Shown here: positions 12,865 through 26,158 of the stretch, piece after piece
How the letters are laid out: each line of letters opens with the position of its first letter
Numbering within the stretch: position 1 is the first letter of the stretch
From: Promethearchaeota archaeon
GTDB taxonomy: Archaea > Asgardarchaeota > Lokiarchaeia > Sigyniarchaeales > SOKP01
DNA: 26,158 nt
Direction of reading: 5' to 3'
Assembly (NCBI GenBank): GCA_048938445.1
Contig: JBHLME010000059.1
Coordinates: 1-26,158 of the forward strand
Made by a program: the position numbers and the translations under genes
The notes under the pieces: generated by a model
Seen by the model: the letters and a program-made list of their open reading frames with translations, nothing else
What the model was told of the DNA's origin: nothing
Database searches by the model: none

Positions 12865-15714
12865 TCATTTAGCCTCAGGTAAGATAATGATAAAATTAGA
12901 GTCCTTTACCATGAATTCTCCATTTAAGCTCGATATAATTTGATCTACGAATGTTAAACCCAATAACATTCCTCGAGATTGTTTAACCATACCTTCTCTT
13001 TCTTTTTGAACTTGATGCGTGTCAATAGTTTTATCAGAAAATTCAATTCTCAAATATTCATCATTATTTTTATGCTCTCGAGAAATTAAAATGTATATTT
13101 CAATTGTGGGATTTATATTATACTCGATCACATTGATTAGAACATTATCAAAAACATCTAACAAAATTTCATTTGCCCTGATATAGAATTTCTTATTTGG
13201 GGGGAAAATTTTTATATCAATATCTTTATCTTGAAAACCAGACTGTATGCTTTTTATGGCTTTATCCAACAATAAATTAACTTCTATTCTTTCTAAAGAA
13301 AGTTGTGCATCTTCAATTAATGCTAGCTTTCTAACATTAGAGACTAACTTAGAGCCACTGATACTATGATCTCGGATAAGATCTAGAATGTCAGTTGCTT
13401 CTTTTTTCTTTTTAGTTTTTTCATCCAGTTTAAATGATTGTATTGATGATTGAATTCTCTTGAATATATTTTTTACGTCCTGAGCAAATAATTCCTTGTA
13501 AAAATTCGCCCTATCATAGAGTCTATGATATTGTTGTTGACTCTCCCTTAATGCATTTTCAGCTTCCTTTTGTTTGGTAACGTCTTGAATTATTATTTGA
13601 ATGTATTTTTCTTCAGATATTTGAACTTGAGAAGATTGGATATTTGCCCAAATCGATGTCCCATCCTTTTTATTTAACATTGCATCTAGTATTGTATATG
13701 TTTCTCCTCCACTTTTTTTCGCATCCTTTAAACCCTCAATGAGCATTAATAAATACTTTGGATGGATTAAGGCAAGTTGATCAAATCTGCTATAAATGAG
13801 TTCTTCCCTTCTATAACCTAATAATTGTTCTATAGCAGGATTACAATCCACTACTAATCCCTTTGAATTGACCAATATTATTGAAAAAGGAGAATTACTA
13901 AATAGATGGCGATATTTATTTTCTGAATTCTTGAGTTTTATCTCTGCTAGTTTCCTCTCAGTAACATCTCTCATTATACATTGAATTAAATTTTGACCTC
14001 CCATTTGAATTTCACTTGCATTAATTTCAACAGGAGTTCCTTTACCTCTAGGATTTTTAATTTTTAACTCCAGTGGAGGTGCATATTCCAATTCAAGTTG
14101 ATGATATAATTTTTGAGTGAAATCATTTTTTTCTCCTTCGAGTTGAAGTTGAGAAACATGCATTCCAATAATATCTTCAGGAGGTCTCTGTATGATTTTT
14201 TCTGCTTGATTATTAGCATCAACTATAATACCAGATTTGCGATCAATGATAAGAATCGCATCTCGAGCAGTCATAAATAATGATTGATAACGCATTTCAG
14301 CGATTCTTAAAGCTTTTACAGTCGGTTCAACAACCTTCAATTTTTTTAAAATTTCTTCATGGATTGCTTCAAGTTGGTTATGAACACTTTCATCATCCTT
14401 ATATTTCGTAAGTATTTCTGTAAATTTCTCAAAAATAAAACTATTGAATTGATCAATAATTGCTCTCGGAAATTTTTCATGAAAAAAGATTACTAGTGAA
14501 AGAGGTAAAAACCCCCCCCGTACTGATTCATCTTCTACAACATCAAAATATATAGCTGCTTTTGCTCTTAGGTGAGTAAAAGGTAAAATAACTGAAATTC
14601 TTTTAAATTCTTTACCTCCAAAAACAAATTGGGAAATTGAAAAACATCTAATTGCTAAAACATCGGGTTCTTCAAAAGCATCTTTAGGATAGACAGCAAT
14701 GATATTTGGTCCCGTGCTTTCATCCCATCGAGAGAGGATTATCCCTAATTCTGTTTTAGGAGGAGGATATAATCTCTCCCCTAATCTTTCAGAAAACCAG
14801 AAAAAAGCTTTATCAACATTTTTATTAGTTAAGGCACTCGTTAAAAAACATTTAAGTGGTCTATTAGATAATTTTTCAACTTCCATCTCATTTTTTAAAT
14901 CGTTAATATCAAGTTCAATAAGGTCCATCTTATTAAAAAGTACAAGTAAAGGCAAACCCTCCATTTCTGGCATTTCTACGATATTATGCAAAATCTTACG
15001 CGCATCATAATATTGCTTTTTATCATATATATCTAATACAAATACTAAACCATCTTGGTTTTTTAAATAAGGGGTCCATAAATCCCTATATTTTACCTGA
15101 CCTGGTGTGTCGTAAGCATACATTGAGATGTTGTTAATCACGATTTTAGATATGTCAATATAGGTTGTAGGAAGTGTTCTATTTGACATTTCTTTTCTTA
15201 TGCTATTCATTATAGTTGTTTTTCCTGCTTGAGAAAGTCCAAATACAAGTATTTTTGCATCCTTACGTTCATACATCACGCTTTCCTTTGGTATCGTTTT
15301 ATAAAAAGAGTCAAATAAATTCTTGACTTCCTGTAGTTTATCTTCAGCATCAGCATATTCAAGACGATCAACAAGAAATGCTTTGTAGGAATCCTCAATT
15401 GCTTGAAATTCACTAACAAATCCTTCTAAAAGTTCTTTAGACATCTCAAGATTAATATCACTATCCATGTCAACAACAATTGAAATGAGAAGCGTTTCGA
15501 CTTTTCCCCTCCCTCTTTCGCTTGGAATGTTAAAAATATAATTGGCACTTTTAAAATCACCGAATACATGCATGAAATATCCTTCCGAATACAAGTCCAT
15601 CAATGAAGGAATTTGATCAAATTCTTCTTTATTTGAGGTTTCTGGGGCCATCATAAAGATTAAAGGACCAAATTTAGCATTAAAATGCGAGAGGAGCAGT
15701 ACTTTCATTTTCAA
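12865..15714 (-). CDS. Multidomain signalling protein: longin/uDENN-like, Arf-like small GTPase, longin/uDENN-like, PAS, PAS, degenerate HisKA/HATPase
   Basis: GTPase motifs: G1 GLSQAGKTT (aa 159-167), G2 PT, G3 DTPGQ, RDLWTPY, G4 NKMD, G5 TSA. Two F/W-x4-GP-x-I-x4-P domains. Two PAS/PAC units ending RDVTERK and QDVTKQK. HK-like tail with a degenerate H-box and G-boxes. Start is TTG 15714 or ATG 15708. Confidence 0.85.
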   Translation of the reverse strand: MKMKVLLLSHFNAKFGPLIFMMAPETSNKEEFDQIPSLMDLYSEGYFMHVFGDFKSANYIFNIPSERGRGKVETLLISIVVDMDSDINLEMSKELLEGFVSEFQAIEDSYKAFLVDRLEYADAEDKLQEVKNLFDSFYKTIPKESVMYERKDAKILVFGLSQAGKTTIMNSIRKEMSNRTLPTTYIDISKIVINNISMYAYDTPGQVKYRDLWTPYLKNQDGLVFVLDIYDKKQYYDARKILHNIVEMPEMEGLPLLVLFNKMDLIELDINDLKNEMEVEKLSNRPLKCFLTSALTNKNVDKAFFWFSERLGERLYPPPKTELGIILSRWDESTGPNIIAVYPKDAFEEPDVLAIRCFSISQFVFGGKEFKRISVILPFTHLRAKAAIYFDVVEDESVRGGFLPLSLVIFFHEKFPRAIIDQFNSFIFEKFTEILTKYKDDESVHNQLEAIHEEILKKLKVVEPTVKALRIAEMRYQSLFMTARDAILIIDRKSGIIVDANNQAEKIIQRPPEDIIGMHVSQLQLEGEKNDFTQKLYHQLELEYAPPLELKIKNPRGKGTPVEINASEIQMGGQNLIQCIMRDVTERKLAEIKLKNSENKYRHLFSNSPFSIILVNSKGLVVDCNPAIEQLLGYRREELIYSRFDQLALIHPKYLLMLIEGLKDAKKSGGETYTILDAMLNKKDGTSIWANIQSSQVQISEEKYIQIIIQDVTKQKEAENALRESQQQYHRLYDRANFYKELFAQDVKNIFKRIQSSIQSFKLDEKTKKKKEATDILDLIRDHSISGSKLVSNVRKLALIEDAQLSLERIEVNLLLDKAIKSIQSGFQDKDIDIKIFPPNKKFYIRANEILLDVFDNVLINVIEYNINPTIEIYILISREHKNNDEYLRIEFSDKTIDTHQVQKEREGMVKQSRGMLLGLTFVDQIISSLNGEFMVKDSNFIIILPEAK

Positions 15715-20338: not shown

Positions 20339-21733
20339 ATGACAGGAAAAAATTATTGTTCTGAAGATTTTCCAAGTATGAATGGTTTATTAAAGGAATT
20401 TAAACCACATGATAGTGCTATATACTCTCTTGCTGTCACACCGGATAAGAAATATGTAATTACAGGTTCACTCGATTGTACCACTAAAATATGGGAATTA
20501 GAAACGGGAGAATCTTTTCAAACTTTAGAAGGCCATGATAAAGAGGTAACAGCAGTATATATCTCATCCGATGGAGGTAGATTAGCAACATGTTCTGAAG
20601 ATCATACCATAAAACTATGGAAATTGGATACGGGGAATTTAATTAGGAACTTTGCAGGTCATCAGAGTGCTGTATTAGGTGTTCTTATATCACCAAATGA
20701 TAAATATGTAATAAGCATCTCTGAAGATAAAACCGCTAAAATCTGGGATTGGAACTCTAAGAAAATAATAAGAAATTTAAAGGACCTTAATATTAGTAGT
20801 AATTCGATTGCAATCACACCTGATGGAGATTATATTGCAATTGGTGTTGGAAAGACCATAAAATTATGGCAATGGGGTTCAGGTGACCCTACATTATCAC
20901 TTGAGGGGCATAAATTTACCGTGAGCTCGCTAGCTATTGGTCCAAATGGAAAATATTTAGTGTCTGGTTCACTTGACAAGACCATTAAAATTTGGGATTT
21001 AAAGAAAGGTACACTAATAAAAACGTTAGAAGGACATAATGGAGGGATAAATTCTGTAGCTATTTCCTATGATAGGGAATATATTGCATCTGGTTCGGGG
21101 GATAAATCTATAATGGTTTGGGGTTTAAATAATAACAAAAAGTATGGTCCTTTCATACATGATACTTATGTTCAGAGTGTCACATTCATACCAAATACCT
21201 ATTTGGTTGTAGCAGGAGACTATAATGGTACTGTTAGAGTATGGGATTTCTTAGAAAATTGTATAGATTTTGAGTCAGGTTTACACCCAAAAGAAACTAC
21301 GGTAAAAATTTCAGATGATCTTGGTAAAAAAATCACTATTTTTATAAGTTATGCTACAACTGATTCAGATAGATTTGAAATTCAAACTGTTGCCAATTTA
21401 TTACAAAATTCGTTTGTTGATATTAAAGATGTTTTGTTTTGGGAAGAATACATGGATGATGATATATATGTTTACATGAATGATAATCTTGGGAAAGCAG
21501 ACGTAATATTAATTTTCTGTTCTGAAAATGCTAATAAATCTGATGCTGTTAGAACTGAATGGATGGCAGCTCATAAAATGAAGAAAAAATTAATTCCTGT
21601 TTTTGAGGATGAAAATGATATACCACCATTACTTACTACAAAACTTGGTATTCATTTTCGACCTGATGATATCAAAGGATTTGTCCAAGAATTACATGAT
21701 TTAATTAGTAAGAAAACTAAAAACCTCAAATAA
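20339..21733 (+). CDS. Seven-bladed WD40 propeller fused to a C-terminal TIR domain
   Basis: Seven GH...WD-type repeats (e.g. LEGHKFTVSSLAIGPNGKYLVSGSLDKTIKIWD). TIR motifs IFISYA, FCSENANKSDAVRTEW (Glu407), LIPVF and IPPLL. Confidence 0.93.
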   Translation: MTGKNYCSEDFPSMNGLLKEFKPHDSAIYSLAVTPDKKYVITGSLDCTTKIWELETGESFQTLEGHDKEVTAVYISSDGGRLATCSEDHTIKLWKLDTGNLIRNFAGHQSAVLGVLISPNDKYVISISEDKTAKIWDWNSKKIIRNLKDLNISSNSIAITPDGDYIAIGVGKTIKLWQWGSGDPTLSLEGHKFTVSSLAIGPNGKYLVSGSLDKTIKIWDLKKGTLIKTLEGHNGGINSVAISYDREYIASGSGDKSIMVWGLNNNKKYGPFIHDTYVQSVTFIPNTYLVVAGDYNGTVRVWDFLENCIDFESGLHPKETTVKISDDLGKKITIFISYATTDSDRFEIQTVANLLQNSFVDIKDVLFWEEYMDDDIYVYMNDNLGKADVILIFCSENANKSDAVRTEWMAAHKMKKKLIPVFEDENDIPPLLTTKLGIHFRPDDIKGFVQELHDLISKKTKNLK

Positions 21734-21940: not shown

Positions 21941-23683
21941 ATGATAATTAAAATCAACTCATTAGAAAGCACTATTGAAATTTTTTATGATAAATACATT
22001 CATCTTCATGGATTTGTAAAACTTGAGGCAGAGAGTGATGAAAATGCTTACATTATCATTATTCAAATTTTAAATGAACAAACTATCTCTGACTATGTTT
22101 TAACTCGTCAAAAATTAAAGAATGTACAAATGACAGAATATATCACAGCGGAATTAGAAACAGAATTGCAATATGTCATTCAAGGACGTCCAATAATTTG
22201 TACTAAAATAGAAAAAGAAACTCAGAAAGAGACTCATGACACCATGAATGTTTTTTTCCTTATAGAAGATTTAATGGAAAACGAAATCTTGAAACCTCAT
22301 TCAATGAAAATCTCAGATGTTCAATCCGATAAACATAAATTTTTAGAGCAAATCTTTACACCTGAAGGAATTTTCATGGGGACACTCGCATCTGAGAAGA
22401 GCGTGAATGTTTACTTCCCATTTAAATATTTAATGTATCATTTTTTTATTGCTGGAGCAACTGGGATGGGAAAATCTAATTTAAATCAAGTAATAATTGA
22501 TGGTTTACTTCAACATAATGCTAATGTGATTTTAAATGGATCAGGTAATAAGATATCTATGCTAGCTATAGATATGCATGATGAGTATGCATTAGGTTGT
22601 AGAGAATATGGTGTATATCATATTAGTAAAACAACGCAATATGATAAAGAGTTAATTGGTAAATGGTTTTATCTCTATCCTAATAATGGTATCGCTCCTA
22701 TTGAAGTTCAAAGTATGGCTCAACCATGTCTAATAAGCTATCAAGAAATCAAACCAGAGGATCTTTTAGCCACGGGGACCTTTAATGATTTACAAGTTGG
22801 CGCAATATATTCTGCATATAATGGCGATAAGGAAAAATATATTGATAATTTATTATCTGGTGGTTATGATATTTTAAAAATATATGATGAAAAAACAATT
22901 GCTGCTATAAGGAGACGTTTACTTTGGTTAGAGTATTCTGAGATGTTCCAATCAAATGCTACAAGTAAATTAGCAAAAATAGTAAAAAAACTAGAGAAGG
23001 GTGGTTTAATCCTTTTTAACGTTTCAATGATCTCTGATTTAGAAATGTTTCTCTTTAATAGTATCTTAGCAAGAACTTTATTTGATATTCGTAAAGCATT
23101 GAAGTCCTCATCAGATTTAACTACATTCAAGAAAAAATTAAGTAATGTACTGCCCACTGCTTTTTATGAGGAATATAAGAAAAATATTTCCTCGATTTAT
23201 GTTAAATCAGGAGAAACGATTAAGGATCCTGCTGATATGCCAGTTATTATTTTTACAATTGAAGAAGCCCCGAGCATTTTAAGACCGGAAATGATGAGAT
23301 TCAGTAACGTGTTTAAAGATATTTCTCGTCAAGGGCGTAAGTTTAACTTAGCGTTGGAAATAATTTCACAACAATATTCCCCAATTGATGATACAATCAT
23401 TTCAAACATGAACACGGTAATAAACCTACCTTTGAGATCTGAGAAAGAAAAAGCAGTTGCTGCTAGAGTTCTAGGGGGAGGAATTCAATATAGTGATTTA
23501 GAATCTTTAACAGGTACTAGAGGGATTGCGTTAATATCAGGAATTTGGCTTACTAACTTCCAAAAACTTCATATCCCCTTATATGACAAATACTTCAAGG
23601 AAATATCTAAAAAAATCTTTGAAGATTTTGCATTAAAAATTAAAAATCAGAGGTCCAGTCCACCTCCTACAGGGTTACCTTAG
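21941..23683 (+). CDS. herA: HerA-like (FtsK/HerA superfamily, DUF87) ATPase/translocase
   Basis: HFFIAGATGMGKSN (Walker A), IDMHDEY, IEEAP (Walker B), RQGRKF (Arg finger), ISQQ...IDDTIISNMNT. Adjacent to nurA and mre11. Confidence 0.88.
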   Translation: MIIKINSLESTIEIFYDKYIHLHGFVKLEAESDENAYIIIIQILNEQTISDYVLTRQKLKNVQMTEYITAELETELQYVIQGRPIICTKIEKETQKETHDTMNVFFLIEDLMENEILKPHSMKISDVQSDKHKFLEQIFTPEGIFMGTLASEKSVNVYFPFKYLMYHFFIAGATGMGKSNLNQVIIDGLLQHNANVILNGSGNKISMLAIDMHDEYALGCREYGVYHISKTTQYDKELIGKWFYLYPNNGIAPIEVQSMAQPCLISYQEIKPEDLLATGTFNDLQVGAIYSAYNGDKEKYIDNLLSGGYDILKIYDEKTIAAIRRRLLWLEYSEMFQSNATSKLAKIVKKLEKGGLILFNVSMISDLEMFLFNSILARTLFDIRKALKSSSDLTTFKKKLSNVLPTAFYEEYKKNISSIYVKSGETIKDPADMPVIIFTIEEAPSILRPEMMRFSNVFKDISRQGRKFNLALEIISQQYSPIDDTIISNMNTVINLPLRSEKEKAVAARVLGGGIQYSDLESLTGTRGIALISGIWLTNFQKLHIPLYDKYFKEISKKIFEDFALKIKNQRSSPPPTGLP

Positions 23684-23711
23684 GAGAATAGCTAACTTAG
23701 AGGGGATAAAT

Positions 23712-24911
23712 ATCTCTTTTGATTTTGAATTAATTTCTTTAGAGGAATCGTTTCAAAAAAGACCAGAACATTCCATAGAGCAAGAAATCAAGCAATTTAA
23801 AGAATATATTCAAAGTAGAAAAGTATCTTGGACTCAAGAAGAAAAAATCGAATTAGAAACAGATAAATTCGATGATGAGGAAACTTTAGAAAATACAAAT
23901 GTCCATTTTAGTGAAATGACGCATCACATCTTTTCGCGTGAATTAAAAGACCTACTTCAACATGATTTTAAAATTATTGGTTTTGATGAGAGTTCAAATA
24001 CTTTTTCTGGAACTTATGCGAGATTAGCTTCTTTCAAATTTGGAGAAGGTCAATTAACCTTTAAAAACGGTAAATACCAAAAAGAATTAATCATGTACAA
24101 ACCAATTACAGCATATATAGAAGATAATGAACATAAACTAATTATTTATAGATATGTAATTCAAAATTTTGTAGATACTATTAAAAATTCATTTTATAAA
24201 GGAAATTTAAAGAATGAAATTGATAAGCTAGACAAATGGTTTGAAAATACATATAAAAAAAAAATTGATGACCATATTAATGCTCATAACTTTTATTATC
24301 CATCAATGGGTCATGTTATTGATAGGATAAGAACCGCAGACGAGATTTTAAAATCTCTAATACGAATCAGAGACGAGAGCAATTGGGGGAATAATAAAAA
24401 GGTTATTTTTCTTGGAGATGGAATTCAAATGTTTAGGCAACATATCTTTCCCCCTCAAGCATTCATAAATTTCTTCTATAAATTCATTAAAATTTATAAT
24501 ATTAAATATTATAGCTTTTCAAAAACATGCCGACTGAGAGATGCTCAGGGAAACTTCATTCTTCCTATATGGTCAGAAATTTTAGATAAACAACGTTTCT
24601 TAGTTGAATTACCGGATCTTTCACAATATACAAAAAGTAAGGCATTCATTACTAGATTGCAGGAAGATTCTGCAACATTGAGATTTGATGTTCCTGATTT
24701 TTATTCTATTAACGAAGCAATAAAAATATTACGTAATTTGATTCCCTATTCACCGCGTGGTTATCCCTTGTGTCTCGAAGATGCTCATAATGCAAGTACA
24801 TTATTACCATCAGAATATAATAAATTAGAAGGTAACTTTTTAGAGTTACAATATGATGAAAAAACAAAAAAATACACTCAAGAGTGGAGGCATAAAGTTT
24901 TACCTCCCTAA
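23712..24911 (+). CDS. nurA: NurA-like 5'-3' nuclease (RNase H-like fold); start uncertain, first ATG at 23916 but the frame is open from 23637
   Basis: IIGFDESS (first acidic), IFLGDG (second acidic), SFSKT, LRFD, and the diagnostic GYPLCLEDAHNAS. Upstream in-frame coding-like sequence (ISFDFELISLEESFQKRPEHSIEQEIKQFKEYIQ...) follows a GAGGGG SD-like element at 23700-23705. Confidence 0.8.
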   Translation: MSFDFELISLEESFQKRPEHSIEQEIKQFKEYIQSRKVSWTQEEKIELETDKFDDEETLENTNVHFSEMTHHIFSRELKDLLQHDFKIIGFDESSNTFSGTYARLASFKFGEGQLTFKNGKYQKELIMYKPITAYIEDNEHKLIIYRYVIQNFVDTIKNSFYKGNLKNEIDKLDKWFENTYKKKIDDHINAHNFYYPSMGHVIDRIRTADEILKSLIRIRDESNWGNNKKVIFLGDGIQMFRQHIFPPQAFINFFYKFIKIYNIKYYSFSKTCRLRDAQGNFILPIWSEILDKQRFLVELPDLSQYTKSKAFITRLQEDSATLRFDVPDFYSINEAIKILRNLIPYSPRGYPLCLEDAHNASTLLPSEYNKLEGNFLELQYDEKTKKYTQEWRHKVLPP

Positions 24912-24944
24912 ATAAAAATAAAAATAGAATTATTGGTAGATAAT

Positions 24945-26158
24945 ATGGTCAAATTAATTCACATGTCAGATACTCATCTTGGATATCGTGCTAGAAAAGG
25001 TGCAATTAATCAATGGGCAATTGAAAATTATTCTAAACCTTATGAACAAGAGATTTATGATTTGTTTATAAAACTCTTTGATGATATTGCTAACATGAAA
25101 GATTTAGATTTTGTTATACATTGTGGAGACATGTTTCATGTTCCTTCAAAATTAAATGCACACCCTCCACCAGAACCAGCAAGAATGGCTTTAAAAAGTG
25201 CATTAGACAACTTTTTTAATAAAACATCTAACAAGATTCCTTTAATTTATATTGAAGGCAATCATGGAATTTTTCGAGGATATGACTATACTCCATTCGA
25301 ATCTCATATTAGTAGAGAAGAATATCCAAATCTTCATTATTATAAAGAGCGTGATTTATTAAACGCAATAAAGTCAGATCAACCATTATTTTTAGAATTT
25401 AAAGAGAAAAGGGTAAGATTTTATTTGTTTCCTTATTTTGAATTTAAAAGTATTGAAAGTTATAAGCACGCTTACGATAAATGGATTGAAAAACAAAAAC
25501 CTCCAAAAAATGATAATTTCATTAATATCGCATTAGCTCATGGCTCAGAAATAGATAATACTCTTCATAAGGAATTAAAATACGATGATTTTGGATACGA
25601 TTATATTGCATTAGGTCATGAACATGGATTGATTCGAAAATCAAAAAAAAGCTATTACTCTGGTTGCCTTCTACCATTAAACTTTAAGGAAATTCATGAA
25701 AACCAAGGATATTTAATTGTTGATATTAATGATGAAACAAAAGAATTGAAGGTAAAAGAAGAATATACGGATCAAATGATAGCACGACTATTTGATATTA
25801 TTACAATTAATGTCTCACCTCAAGAAACTTCTGAAGAATTAGAAAGAAAAATAAACCGTGAATTAAAAAAATGTGTTTCTAATGATGGTTTTAACCCAAA
25901 AACTGCTGCAAGGTTAAAGATTAATTTTACAGGTGAAATGACATTTGAAAAAGCATGGCAAATTAATGATATAATGGTCAGAATCCGTAGAGAATGCTTT
26001 TCTCAAACTGAAAAATATAATATAATGCAATTAATATGGACGACGTCAGATTTTTCAGAATTTATTGAAGATGATATAAGTTCAGGAATTATAGAGGATT
26101 ATATATTAGAAAAACCCGATGAAGAATTCAAGCAATTTGTAATTGAAAAATTAAGCGA
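24945..26158 (+). CDS. mre11: Mre11/SbcD-like metallophosphoesterase nuclease; 3'-truncated and absent from the ORF track
   Basis: Hand translation gives MVKLIHMSDTHLGY (I), IHCGDMFH (II), IEGNHG (III), LAHGS (IV), YDYIALGHEH (V) and YYSGCLLPLNFKE...GYLIVD, then a capping-domain-like region. No stop seen before the window end. Confidence 0.92.
   Translation, partial: MVKLIHMSDTHLGYRARKGAINQWAIENYSKPYEQEIYDLFIKLFDDIANMKDLDFVIHCGDMFHVPSKLNAHPPPEPARMALKSALDNFFNKTSNKIPLIYIEGNHGIFRGYDYTPFESHISREEYPNLHYYKERDLLNAIKSDQPLFLEFKEKRVRFYLFPYFEFKSIESYKHAYDKWIEKQKPPKNDNFINIALAHGSEIDNTLHKELKYDDFGYDYIALGHEHGLIRKSKKSYYSGCLLPLNFKEIHENQGYLIVDINDETKELKVKEEYTDQMIARLFDIITINVSPQETSEELERKINRELKKCVSNDGFNPKTAARLKINFTGEMTFEKAWQINDIMVRIRRECFSQTEKYNIMQLIWTTSDFSEFIEDDISSGIIEDYILEKPDEEFKQFVIEKLS

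What the first reader, a model, noticed from the sequence alone, without database searches (positions are those of the whole stretch)
14330..15714. Arf-like GTPase sandwiched between two longin/uDENN-like domains that retain an FLCN/SMCR8-type arginine-finger loop: a possible single-chain GTPase+GAP
Seen: aa ~1-140 (LLLSHFNAKFGPLIFMMAP...SERGRGKVETLLISIV, Arg69) and aa ~323-460 (GIILSRWDESTGPNIIAVYP...EDESVRGGFLPLSLVIF, Arg399) look like paralogous domains. They flank a GTPase with intact G1-G5 and Arf-like features (DTPGQ, RDLWTPY, NKMD). Known: the F-x4-GP-x-I start and D-x2-ARG loop typify uDENN/longin domains of FLCN, SMCR8 and NPRL2. These work as longin heterodimers that donate an arginine finger (FLCN R164 to RagC/D, SMCR8 R147 to ARF1). 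Inference: the two domains form an intramolecular longin pseudo-dimer regulating the enclosed GTPase, a prokaryotic one-gene analogue of the C9orf72-SMCR8/ARF module.
Basis: partly seen in the sequence, partly recalled or inferred. Interest (0 to 1): 0.9.

Follow-up and report, generated by a model that had tools for sequence, protein, structure and literature searches.

The report
Arf GTPase between two GAP-type longins
An Asgard archaeal signalling protein carries an Arf-like GTPase between two longin domains of the type that switch off Arf and Rag GTPases in eukaryotes, which suggests this GTPase–regulator pairing is older than eukaryotes.

Summary
The stated region is only the N-terminal 461 aa of one 949-aa ORF (window 12865-15714, minus strand). 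The ORF continues into two PAS domains and a degenerate histidine-kinase-like end.

Both flanks fold with high confidence as longin domains (pLDDT 91). Their best PDB matches are GATOR1 chains of NPRL2 size, folliculin-complex chains and an Asgard longin dimer. The middle domain is a clear Arf-family GTPase.

The three-part module is conserved in about 100 Asgard proteins, including forms of about 475 aa without PAS domains.
- R399-G400 is nearly invariant (102/104).
- R69 is R in 64/64 homologues that keep the Arf catalytic Gln206, but in only 12/40 that lost it. No other conserved position behaves this way. This points to R69 as the residue tied to hydrolysis.
- The C-flank carries a W-D-x3-G-P motif spaced as in C9orf72.

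Not shown: the longin pseudo-dimer, the reach of either arginine, and any GAP activity. No model coordinates were available.

HMM-level membership of the Folliculin and NPR2 families fails.

Published work already describes Asgard GP/Arg longins and longin–GTPase fusions, so this is a new variant of a known kind, not a new kind.

The parts
12865..15714 (-). Whole ORF, 949 aa from TTG (probable start ATG at 15708, giving 947 aa): longin - Arf-like GTPase - longin - PAS - PAS - HK-like
   Evidence: (P0002 947 aa)
15274..15714 (-). N-terminal longin domain (aa 1-147). It holds G16-P17 at the start of strand 2 and R69 in the beta4-beta5 loop, and has no WD motif (F11-N12 instead).
   Evidence: AF2 pLDDT 91.2; Foldseek top hits are GATOR1 chains of NPRL2 size, E 2.6e-6; no Pfam hit
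15508..15510 (-). Codon of Arg69, the candidate cis arginine finger
   Evidence: R in 64/64 homologues with Gln206 and in 12/40 without it. Largest entropy gain (0 to 2.0 bits) among positions that are well conserved (entropy under 0.3 bits) in the Gln-bearing group, over aa 1-470.
14767..15273 (-). Arf-family GTPase domain (aa 148-316): P-loop FGLSQAGKT, DTPGQ with catalytic Gln206 (15097-15099), NKMD, TSA. It has no N-terminal amphipathic helix.
   Evidence: Pfam Arf E=9e-35; motif conservation
14305..14766 (-). C-terminal longin domain (aa 317-470), with W330-D331-x3-G335-P336 (14707-14727) and R399-G400-G401. It ends in a long helix (about aa 441-469) that leads into PAS1.
   Evidence: AF2 pLDDT 91.0; Foldseek; ESM Atlas structure hits; motif conserved in 121 representatives
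14518..14520 (-). Codon of Arg399, the near-invariant Arg of the R-G-G loop
   Evidence: 102/104 in the family; 109/122 domains in the wider set; 38/40 retained without Gln206
13957..14292 (-). PAS domain 1 (aa 475-586)
   Evidence: Pfam PAS_9/PAS; TIGR00229
13549..13920 (-). PAS domain 2 (aa 599-722)
12868..13548 (-). Histidine-kinase-like C-terminus (aa 723-949). The HATPase_c-like part is aa 851-947, below the Pfam cutoff. The expected H-box position is Gln745, and no DxGxG G1 box is present.

Best explanation
The gene encodes an Asgard-archaeal signalling protein. Its N-terminal 470 aa form a self-contained GTPase switch: an Arf-family G domain held between two longin domains of the FLCN/SMCR8/NPRL2 structural type.

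Proposed mechanism (inferred, by analogy with C9orf72-SMCR8:ARF1):
- The two longins pair within the chain into a bowl on which the G domain sits.
- The N-longin plays the SMCR8/NPRL2-like catalytic role. Its Arg69, in the beta4-beta5 loop next to the GP loop, complements Gln206 to speed GTP hydrolysis in cis.
- The C-longin plays the C9orf72-like holding role through its W-D-x3-G-P loop.
- The invariant R399-G-G loop has a second role that is not yet defined.
- The long last helix of the C-longin runs into two PAS domains and a degenerate kinase-like dimerisation module. Either a PAS-sensed signal gates the built-in GAP, or the nucleotide state is passed to the PAS/HK-like part.

Shown: the domain folds, their order, the motif positions, the conservation, and the R69-Gln206 co-variation.
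Inferred: the pseudo-dimer, the finger geometry, GAP activity, and the direction of signalling.
For: 1. Fold. AF2 models of aa 1-147 and aa 317-470 have pLDDT 91 and pTM 0.88, with longin topology.

2. Structural neighbours. The top Foldseek PDB hits for both flanks are GATOR1 chains of 362-370 modelled residues (9v0j_A, 9o5a_H, 9o5d_D, 7t3b_B; E 2.6e-6 to 4.5e-4; TMq 0.49-0.60). Further hits are SEA-complex 8adl_S, folliculin-complex chains (6nzd_H, 8dhb_J, 6ulg), Lst4 longin 4zy8, DENND1B 3tw8_C and the Lokiarchaeota longin dimer 8yqg (TMq 0.57-0.61). The Atlas structure search of the C-flank lists SMCR8 (TM 0.72), NPRL2 (0.70), Avl9 (0.73), and Asgard clusters with Folliculin or NPR2 Pfam labels on 23% and 19% of members.

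3. Motif placement. GP lies at the start of strand 2 and the Arg lies in the beta4-beta5 loop in both flanks. PMC12290439 section 2.4 describes the GAP-longin GP motif as sitting at that spot beside the arginine finger.

4. Co-variation.
- R69 is R in 64/64 sequences with Gln206, and in 12/40 without it (K17, N6, L3, T1, P1).
- Of the 34 positions invariant in the Gln206 group, R69 is the only one (apart from Gln206, which defines the groups) that collapses. The next lowest is T166 at 33/40; most others are 36/40 or more.
- R69 shows the largest entropy gain, 0 to 2.0 bits, among the conserved positions.
- On three trees all 5 minimum changes at position 69 fall in non-Gln clades. These clades hold 27-28% of tree length in the two trees where this was measured.

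5. C-flank motif. W330-D331 to G335-P336 has the same W-to-G spacing (+5) as C9orf72 W33-D34 to G38-P39. W33/D34 are needed for ARF1 GAP activity.

6. Module unity. Forms with only longin-Arf-longin exist, at 473-483 aa (P0116-P0118). The inter-domain linkers are short, about 8-12 aa.

7. Precedent. An engineered ARF1-SMCR8 fusion was catalytically active.
Against: - No atomic coordinates were available. Neither the pseudo-dimer nor the distance from either arginine to the nucleotide was measured.
- Sequence-level membership fails. Pfam Folliculin matched 1/42 N-flanks (E 0.1) and 1/49 C-flanks (E 0.17). NPR2 matched none. Profile searches of PDB sequences found nothing (best E 0.28 and 0.82).
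- The phylogenetically paired test of Gln206 against R69 is not significant: 6 independent pairs, about 1.2 concordant, 0 discordant, p 0.5-1. My branch-length argument (0.27^5 to 0.28^5, about 0.0015) is post hoc and rough.
- R399 is more conserved than R69 and does not track Gln206 (38/40), which the R69-finger model does not explain.
- The GP motif is loose within the family. N-flank: GP 43, PP 26, RP 13 of 104. C-flank: GP only 9/104.
- Longin platforms act more often as GEFs than as GAPs (statements in PMC12290439 section 2.4 and PMC10933270).
- An ungated cis GAP would hold the GTPase GDP-bound, as the ARF1-SMCR8 fusion was. The model therefore needs a gate that has not been shown.
Confidence: 0.45

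Rival explanations
1. The longin pair is a nucleotide-state platform without GAP chemistry. It would act as an exchange factor, or as an effector-like sensor that binds the switch regions, as the TRAPP core, Mon1-Ccz1 and DENN longins do. It would pass the GTPase state to the PAS/HK-like part. The conserved arginines would be structural or binding residues.
For: Two papers state that longin and roadblock platforms act mainly as GEFs (PMC10933270 introduction; PMC12290439 section 2.4). DENND1B, TRAPP sedlin/synbindin and Sec22/Ykt6 longins also appear among the Foldseek hits. R399-G-G stays invariant in the 40 homologues that lack the catalytic Gln (38/40), and in longins fused to TPR, REC or zinc ribbons with no GTPase in the chain.
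Against: The best structural matches are the GAP-type longins, not the GEF-type ones. R69 loses constraint exactly where the hydrolytic Gln is lost. That is expected for a catalytic partner and not for a binding platform.
Confidence: 0.25
2. The longin pair is a GAP that acts in trans, across a homodimer or on other ArfR/Rag-like GTPases of the cell. R399 would be the finger. The embedded G domain would be a regulatory or targeting subunit.
For: R399-G400 is the most conserved feature (102/104; 109 and 106 of 122 domains in the wider set), and it occurs in stand-alone longins that must work in trans (A4 invariant columns). The HK-like end and the long helix suggest a homodimer. In 8/60 loci another Arf-like GTPase gene lies nearby, and in 8/60 a Rab-like one.
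Against: No neighbour is conserved beyond 8/60 loci. The short linkers and the forms of about 475 aa that hold only the module argue that the three domains work as one unit. The R69-Gln206 coupling is within the chain.
Confidence: 0.15
3. The flanks are mainly assembly domains, like the C-terminal roadblock domains that dimerise Rag GTPases. The protein would be a Rag-like GTPase whose longins only build the dimer or scaffold.
For: Tran et al. class Asgard Arf-annotated GTPases fused to longin or RB domains as Rag-like, and model dimers through these domains (PMC10933270). Some homologues give weak Gtr1_RagA Pfam hits. The Asgard longin 8yqg is a dimer by its entry title. G-domain plus longin proteins of about 341-348 aa are common.
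Against: This does not explain the invariant loop motifs (WD-x3-G, R-G-G) or the conditional conservation of R69. Pfam scores Arf far above Gtr1_RagA for this protein.
Confidence: 0.15

Closest known systems
C9orf72-SMCR8(-WDR41) ARF GAP complex (eukaryotes)
   Same: An Arf-family GTPase with two longin domains. One longin has GP plus Arg (SMCR8 R147). The other has WD plus GP at the same W-to-G spacing (C9orf72 W33-D34/G38-P39). The ESM Atlas structure search of the C-flank lists SMCR8 at TM 0.72. An engineered ARF1-SMCR8 fusion works.
   Different: Here all three parts lie in one chain, in the order longin-G-longin. There are no DENN domains and no WDR41 partner has been shown. The C-flank carries both WD and an Arg. 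Pfam Folliculin/SMCR8 HMMs do not match. PAS and HK-like domains follow. No GAP activity or geometry has been shown.
GATOR1 (NPRL2-NPRL3) and FLCN-FNIP2 Rag GAPs
   Same: These give the best PDB structural matches for both flanks. They are longin heterodimers with an arginine finger.
   Different: Their substrates are Rag GTPases, not Arf. They are multi-subunit lysosomal complexes. The identity of the matched chains as NPRL2 or FLCN rests on chain length and my recall, not on a call.
Asgard 'FLCN/SMCR8-type' GP-motif longins (PMC12290439, Traffic 2025)
   Same: Same kind of domain. The C-flank family includes stand-alone proteins of 143-180 aa with invariant W, G and R-G. That paper reports GP plus an Arg finger in Asgard longins and asks whether ArfR or Rag GTPases are the partners.
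   Different: Here the longins are fused on both sides of an ArfR-type GTPase, which names a partner. The passages I read mention no such fusion. Their sequence set (Data S1) could not be opened.
Asgard GTPase-longin/roadblock fusions (PMC10933270; PMC11914678)
   Same: [quoted passage not shown] Zhu et al. note longin domains at the N-termini of AArfs.
   Different: In the passages read, neither paper describes two GAP-type longins, the Arg/GP/WD motifs, the PAS/HK-like tail or the R69-Gln206 coupling. Their figures and supplements were not visible to me and may show this architecture.
MglA-MglB (bacterial Ras-like GTPase with a roadblock-dimer GAP/GEF)
   Same: A prokaryotic small GTPase regulated by a dimer of the roadblock/longin superfold.
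   Different: These are separate polypeptides. The fold is roadblock, not longin. That MglB supplies no arginine finger is my recall, not tested here.

Membership tests
Longin-domain fold | Five-stranded sheet with beta-beta-alpha-beta-beta-beta-alpha-alpha order, no N-terminal helix and an extra C-terminal helix | tested here: met
   AF2 secondary structure of both flanks. Foldseek hits to solved longins: 8yqg, 4zy8, 1ifq, 2vx8, 3kyq. The topology definition comes from PMC10933270.
FLCN/SMCR8/NPRL2-type GAP longins | GP motif at the loop before, or the start of, strand 2 | tested here: met
   This protein has G16-P17 and G335-P336 at the start of strand 2. Across the family it is looser. N-flank: P17 85/85 ungapped, G16 43/104. 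C-flank: G335 103/104, P336 9/104. In the wider C-flank set P is present in 96/122.
FLCN/SMCR8/NPRL2-type GAP longins | [quoted passage not shown] | tested here: inconclusive
   R69 and R399 lie in the beta4-beta5 loops and are conserved. No residue-level superposition on the solved GAPs was possible, because the tools give no coordinates or alignments.
FLCN/SMCR8/NPRL2-type GAP longins | Match to the family HMMs (Pfam PF11704 Folliculin, PF06218 NPR2) | tested here: not met
   Folliculin matched 1/42 (E 0.1) and 1/49 (E 0.17). NPR2 matched none, even with hits up to E = 10 reported.
FLCN/SMCR8/NPRL2-type GAP longins | Longin followed by a DENN domain, and heterodimerisation of two longins | tested here: not met
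   No DENN domain is present. A GTPase follows the N-longin and PAS domains follow the C-longin. Pairing of the two longins was not established.
FLCN/SMCR8/NPRL2-type GAP longins | GAP activity that depends on the arginine | not testable with these tools
   This needs biochemistry.
Arf family / Asgard ArfR GTPases | Arf-type G domain (Pfam Arf; G1-G5; DxxGQ with catalytic Gln; the W..Y motif after switch II) | tested here: met
   Pfam Arf 120 bits, E 9e-35. The motifs DTPGQ, RDLWTPYL, NKMD and TSA are present.
Arf family / Asgard ArfR GTPases | N-terminal amphipathic helix for membrane binding | tested here: not met
   The G domain starts at about aa 148, directly after a longin domain and a short linker of about 8-12 aa.
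Sensor histidine kinase | HisKA/DHp with a phospho-acceptor His, and a HATPase_c domain with N, G1 and G2 boxes | tested here: not met
   No HisKA hit at E<=1. HATPase_c scores 20.9-23.8 bits, under the 26.4 cutoff. The aligned H-box position is Gln745; among 95 homologues it is H in 26 and N in 49. No DxGxG box is present (FSDKTID instead). His730, conserved in at least 90% of 95 homologues, lies 15 residues upstream and its role is unknown.

The most novel reading that the evidence does not exclude
The longin-ArfR-longin module is a single-chain, ancestral-style version of the eukaryotic longin-GAP:GTPase pairs (C9orf72-SMCR8:ARF, GATOR1/FLCN:Rag). Arg69 of the N-longin is a cis arginine finger for the Arf-type Gln. 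The C-longin holds the GTPase through its WD-GP loop. PAS domains gate hydrolysis. If so, the longin-GAP/Arf-family partnership predates eukaryotes and first served signal transduction, not membrane traffic. It would also answer the partner question raised in PMC12290439.
Probability: 0.3. Interest if true: 0.8.

Novelty: new variant of a known kind. Interest (0 to 1): 0.62.

Why it matters
Eukaryotic longin GAP complexes control nutrient signalling and lysosome biology, and they are disease genes: FLCN in Birt-Hogg-Dube syndrome, C9orf72 in ALS/FTD and GATOR1 in epilepsy (my knowledge). Their origin and their original partners are an open question. PMC12290439 asks which Asgard GTPases the GP/Arg longins act on. 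Zhu et al. found no convincing Asgard Arf GAP.

A natural fusion that places an Arf-type GTPase between two such longins names a partner. In it, one arginine is conserved only while the catalytic Gln is present. The module of about 470 aa is small and has no predicted membrane anchor. It offers a tractable system for testing longin-GAP chemistry without large eukaryotic complexes. It also shows small-GTPase switches wired directly to PAS, REC and kinase-like domains in the closest archaeal relatives of eukaryotes.

Tried and rejected
- Pairwise BLASTP of the two flanks gave no signal (E=12).
- HMM profiles of each flank against all PDB sequences gave nothing significant (best E 0.28 and 0.82).
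- Pfam on every member of both flank alignments, with hits up to E = 10 reported, gave only noise.
- Complex prediction with the N-longin, G domain, C-longin and GTP, with the G domain as partner, returned no verdict (score 0.00, mark 0.32; controls not run). This is neither support nor evidence against binding.
- The ESM Atlas feature searches scored 0.75-0.85, below the 0.9 level, so they are leads only. No Atlas structure search was possible for the N-flank.
- The search for a conserved operon partner found nothing. The most frequent neighbours occur in 8/60 loci, and no response regulator lies beside the gene in the window.
- The search for stand-alone N-flank-type longins found 14 short proteins. 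Five carry source names marked 'partial' and several others lie on contigs under 1.5 kb, so they may be fragments. Only P0241 (150 aa, on a 63-kb contig) looks complete.
- Weak Foldseek hits of both flanks to LOV/PAS-kinase chains (TMq 0.28-0.36; rmsd 5-31 A, mostly above 14 A) were rejected as matches to the long helix.
- The treekit independent-pairs test of Gln206 against R69 was not significant.
- The review PMC10050129 is not held.
- Data S1 of PMC12290439 could not be read.
Full report
**1. What is at the site**

The finding's coordinates (14330-15714) cover aa 1-461 of a single minus-strand ORF, 12865..15714. It has 949 codons counted from a TTG. The real start is probably the ATG at codon 3. 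The database copy of the protein has 947 aa (P0002), and an AT-rich TATA-like stretch lies in the 50-nt gap after the upstream flavin-reductase gene.

Pfam and NCBIfam give the following.
- An Arf-family GTPase at aa 147-310 (PF00025, E=9e-35, 120 bits; Ras scores only 57 bits).
- Two PAS domains, at aa 475-586 and aa 599-722.
- A weak HATPase_c match at aa 851-947 (20.9 bits, below the 26.4 cutoff).
- Nothing for aa 1-146 or aa 316-470.

All quoted peptides, and the codons of R69, R399, Q206, GP16-17 and WDESTGP330-336, were verified.

**2. Whose gene it is**

A search with aa 1-470 found 106 proteins with E<=0.001. Where a source names them, the names are Asgard lineages: Promethearchaeota, Lokiarchaeota, Hod-, Hermod-, Thor-, Heimdall- and Odinarchaeota. 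Almost all share the layout X-Arf-X-PAS-PAS(-GAF/HK).

A scan of one genome per species returned 60 loci. Of these, 53 are titled as Asgard MAGs and 7 as 'uncultured archaeon'. Several genomes hold two copies.

The window has about 29% G+C, and its closest locus is 84% identical in the C-flank (L001).

No neighbouring gene is conserved. The commonest neighbours, another Arf-like GTPase and a Rab-like GTPase, each occur in 8/60 loci. In the window the neighbours are a flavin reductase, a YhhN protein, DUF429 and an unannotated membrane protein. No response regulator is adjacent.

**3. The flanks are longin domains of the GAP type, by structure**

I modelled aa 1-147 and aa 317-470 separately, each with a 103-row alignment (A2, A1).
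- Both models are confident: pLDDT 91.2 and 91.0, pTM 0.88.
- Both have the order beta1-beta2-alpha-beta3-beta4-beta5-alpha-alpha(-alpha). This is the longin topology as defined in PMC10933270.

Foldseek against the PDB gave 10 matches (N-flank) and 7 matches (C-flank) at E<=0.001.
- The list is led by GATOR1 chains of 362-370 modelled residues: 9v0j_A, 9o5a_H, 9o5d_D and 7t3b_B (E 2.6e-6 to 4.5e-4; TMq 0.49-0.60).
- It also includes SEA-complex 8adl_S, folliculin-complex chains (6nzd_H, 8dhb_J, 6ulg_L/N), the Lst4 longin, DENND1A/B, and the dimeric longin of a Lokiarchaeota roadblock-longin protein (8yqg; TMq 0.57-0.61).
- That the GATOR1 chains are NPRL2 is my inference from their length and from recall. 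No call names the chains.

The ESM Atlas structure search of the C-flank independently lists several clusters.
- Eukaryotic SMCR8 (TM 0.72), NPRL2 (0.70) and Avl9 (0.73).
- Asgard clusters in which 23% of members carry Pfam Folliculin, or 19% carry NPR2.

Weak LOV/PAS-kinase hits (TMq about 0.3, mostly large rmsd) are matches to the long terminal helix, and I discount them.

At the sequence level, membership is not supported.
- Profile searches of PDB sequences found nothing.
- Pfam Folliculin appears once in 42 N-flanks (E 0.1) and once in 49 C-flanks (E 0.17). NPR2 never appears.

**4. Are the two flanks paralogues?**

- BLASTP says no (E=12).
- Profile-profile comparison says weakly yes: E 5e-4 and E 8.6e-5 at 60% probability over 99 columns. 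Controls against the G domain gave E 0.049 and 0.18.
- Both alignments place G16-P17 on G335-P336 and R69 on R399.

Together with the identical topology, I accept common descent as likely but not proven.

**5. Motifs and their conservation**

In the models the GP dipeptide starts strand 2 and each Arg lies in the beta4-beta5 loop. PMC12290439 (section 2.4, read whole) describes the GP motif of C9orf72, SMCR8, FLCN and NPRL2 at exactly this place, next to the arginine finger. It reports the motif as absent from non-GAP longins.

In a 104-sequence family alignment the counts are as follows. The alignment is P0001 plus 103 hits; I left out the self-copy P0002 and the partial hits P0106 and P0107.

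| Position | Count |
|---|---|
| R399 | 102/104 |
| G400 | 102/104 |
| G401 | 96/104 |
| W330-D331 | 99/104 |
| G335 | 103/104 |
| P336 | 9/104 (V/I/L in 81) |
| P17 | 85/85 ungapped |
| G16 | 43/104 (P 26, R 13, gaps 19) |
| R69 | 76/104 |

A full HMMER scan of 1.84 billion representatives with the C-flank found 129 proteins. Across 122 domains in the 121 new representatives, the motif W-D-E-x2-G-P...R-G-G holds.

| Residue | Count of 122 |
|---|---|
| W | 114 |
| D | 99 |
| E | 101 |
| G | 116 |
| P | 96 |
| R | 109 |
| G | 106 |
| G | 98 |

The W-to-G spacing (+5) equals that of C9orf72 W33-D34...G38-P39. W33/D34 are required for ARF1 GAP activity (PMC8213707, passages).

The N-flank has F11-N12 at the WD position.

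The inferred mapping is therefore this.
- The N-flank resembles the finger-bearing subunit (SMCR8/FLCN/NPRL2).
- The C-flank resembles the holding subunit (C9orf72), but it also keeps an Arg.

**6. The most informative result: R69 tracks the catalytic glutamine**

The Arf catalytic Gln206 is present in 64/104 homologues. In the other 40 it is replaced by K (31), H (4), Y (4) or P (1).
- R69 is Arg in 64/64 Gln-bearing sequences.
- R69 is Arg in only 12/40 of the others (K 17, N 6, L 3, T 1, P 1).

Control over other positions:
- Of the 34 positions invariant in the Gln group, and apart from Gln206 itself, R69 is the only one that collapses. The next lowest is T166 at 33/40. R399 and G400 are at 38/40, and most others are at 36/40 or more.
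- R69 has the largest entropy gain among positions that are well conserved (entropy under 0.3 bits) in the Gln group over aa 1-470: 0 to 2.0 bits.

Trees:
- I built three trees with the two trait columns removed: FastTree, IQ-TREE LG+G4, and IQ-TREE PMSF.
- Each needs 6 changes of the Gln state and 5 of the R69 state.
- In the two trees examined in detail, all 5 R69 changes fall inside non-Gln clades, which hold 27-28% of tree length. My rough post hoc estimate is 0.27^5 to 0.28^5, about 0.0015.
- The stricter independent-pairs test has too few events: 6 pairs, about 1.2 concordant, 0 discordant, not significant.

I read this as relaxed constraint on R69 once hydrolysis is given up. That is what one expects of a residue that works with Gln206. 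R399, in contrast, is constrained regardless.

**7. Architecture and likely mechanism**

The module exists alone (P0116-P0118, 473-483 aa, longin-Arf-longin) and as Arf-longin (P0112, 348 aa; Atlas clusters of 341 and 347 aa).

I scanned the 121 representatives with Pfam. The first 60 were scanned at E<=1e-5 and the other 61 at E<=1e-8.

| Feature in the protein | Count of 121 |
|---|---|
| Arf domain | 20 |
| TPR/SNAP-like repeats after an N-terminal longin | 26 |
| Receiver (REC) domain | 5 |
| Zinc ribbon | 3 |

Of the five with a receiver domain, two are REC-Arf-x-longin and three are REC-longin. Several representatives are stand-alone proteins of 143-180 aa.

So this longin type is repeatedly wired to Arf-like GTPases and to two-component-style domains.

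In the window's protein the linkers are short, about 8-12 aa. The last helix of the C-longin (about aa 441-469) runs into PAS1.

The C-terminal kinase-like part looks degenerate.
- There is no HisKA hit.
- Gln745 sits at the aligned H-box position. Among 95 homologues of at least 800 aa, H occupies it in 26 and N in 49.
- There is no DxGxG box.
- His730, conserved in at least 90% of these homologues, lies 15 residues upstream.

My best reading (confidence 0.45) is a single-chain GTPase with a built-in longin GAP.
- R69 is the cis finger.
- The WD-G(P) loop of the C-longin holds the switch regions.
- The PAS/HK-like half provides gating and dimerisation.

Gating is needed because an ungated cis GAP would keep the GTPase GDP-bound. 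The engineered, catalytically active ARF1-SMCR8 fusion was GDP-bound as purified (PMC8213707).

The following remain inferences, because no tool here returns coordinates:
- the pseudo-dimer;
- the finger geometry;
- the GAP activity;
- the direction of signalling.

**8. Rivals**

- (a) A longin platform acting as a GEF or a nucleotide-state sensor without GAP chemistry (confidence 0.25). Longins are more often GEFs. R399 is conserved without the Gln and without any fused GTPase.
- (b) A GAP acting in trans, with R399 as the finger, across a dimer or on other GTPases (0.15).
- (c) Pure assembly domains, as in the Rag C-terminal roadblock domains (0.15).

The R69-Gln206 coupling argues against (a) and (c) as complete explanations. 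Rival (b) can coexist with the main model.

**9. Comparison with what is in print**

- PMC12290439 (passages, section 2.4 whole) already reports GP motifs and arginine fingers in Asgard 'FLCN/SMCR8-type' longins. It asks whether ArfR or Rag GTPases are their partners.
- PMC11914678 (passages) notes longin domains at the N-termini of Asgard Arfs. Its structure search found no convincing Asgard Arf GAP.
- The ArfR preprint 10.1101/2024.02.28.582541 (passages) does not discuss PAS, kinase or GAP-longin fusions in its main text.

I found no paper describing longin-ArfR-longin with GAP-type motifs, its PAS/HK-like tail, or the R69-Gln coupling.
- One search found 15 papers holding all four terms and listed 13. 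I read passages of five of them.
- Searches found 0 papers.
- One search found 0 papers.

Figures and supplements of these papers were not visible to me and may show the same architecture. These include Fig. 1f and Supplementary Fig. 6 of Tran et al., Dataset D8 of Zhu et al., Data S1 of the Traffic paper, and the journal version of the ArfR paper.

**10. Verdict**

- Novelty is a new variant of a known kind.

The value lies in a natural fusion that names an Arf-type partner for Asgard GAP-like longins, and in a specific, testable candidate finger (R69).

Noticed in passing
window 12868-13548 (-), aa 723-949: The histidine-kinase-like end looks catalytically degenerate. There is no HisKA hit, and HATPase_c scores below the Pfam cutoff. 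Gln745 sits at the aligned H-box position; among 95 homologues it is H in 26 and N in 49. No DxGxG box is present. His730, conserved in at least 90% of the 95 homologues, lies 15 residues upstream and its role is unknown.
   Followed up: partly
homologues of window 15097-15099 (Gln206 codon), e.g. L016, L018, L020: About a third of the family (31/104) has Lys in place of the Arf catalytic Gln (motif D-I-P-G-K-Y/F-K). H, Y or P replaces it in 9 more. These may be hydrolysis-deficient or mechanistically different GTPases. In these sequences the N-flank GP also tends to be PP, and F11 tends to be R.
   Followed up: partly
proteins P0175, P0210, P0193, P0206, P0225, P0141-P0163 and others (one search hits): The C-flank-type longin (WD-x3-GP...RGG) also occurs in other layouts: receiver-Arf-x-longin, receiver-longin, longin followed by about 500 aa of TPR/SNAP-like repeats (26/121), and longin plus a zinc ribbon.
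   Followed up: partly
window 20339-21733 (+): A WD40 beta-propeller protein of 464 aa lies 4.6 kb from the gene on the other strand. WDR41, the third subunit of the C9orf72-SMCR8 complex, is also a WD40 protein. WD40 genes are common, though, and no link was tested.
   Followed up: no
window 21941-26156 (+): A HerA-like (DUF87) gene, a NurA-like gene and a calcineurin-like phosphoesterase (Mre11-like) gene lie in a row. This is an archaeal DNA-end-resection cluster. The last ORF runs off the window.
   Followed up: no
window 14699-15010 (+): A 103-aa ORF lies antisense inside the GTPase/longin coding region. It is most likely spurious.
   Followed up: no
loci L004, L015 and others (8/60 each): In 8/60 related loci another Arf-like GTPase with a C-terminal extension (about 314 aa) lies nearby, mostly just upstream on the same strand. 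In 8/60 a Rab-like GTPase lies nearby.
   Followed up: no
window 15708-15714 (-): The ORF tool starts the gene at a TTG. The ATG two codons later is the likelier start: the database copy has 947 aa, and a TATA-like stretch lies about 25-35 nt upstream of it.
   Followed up: yes
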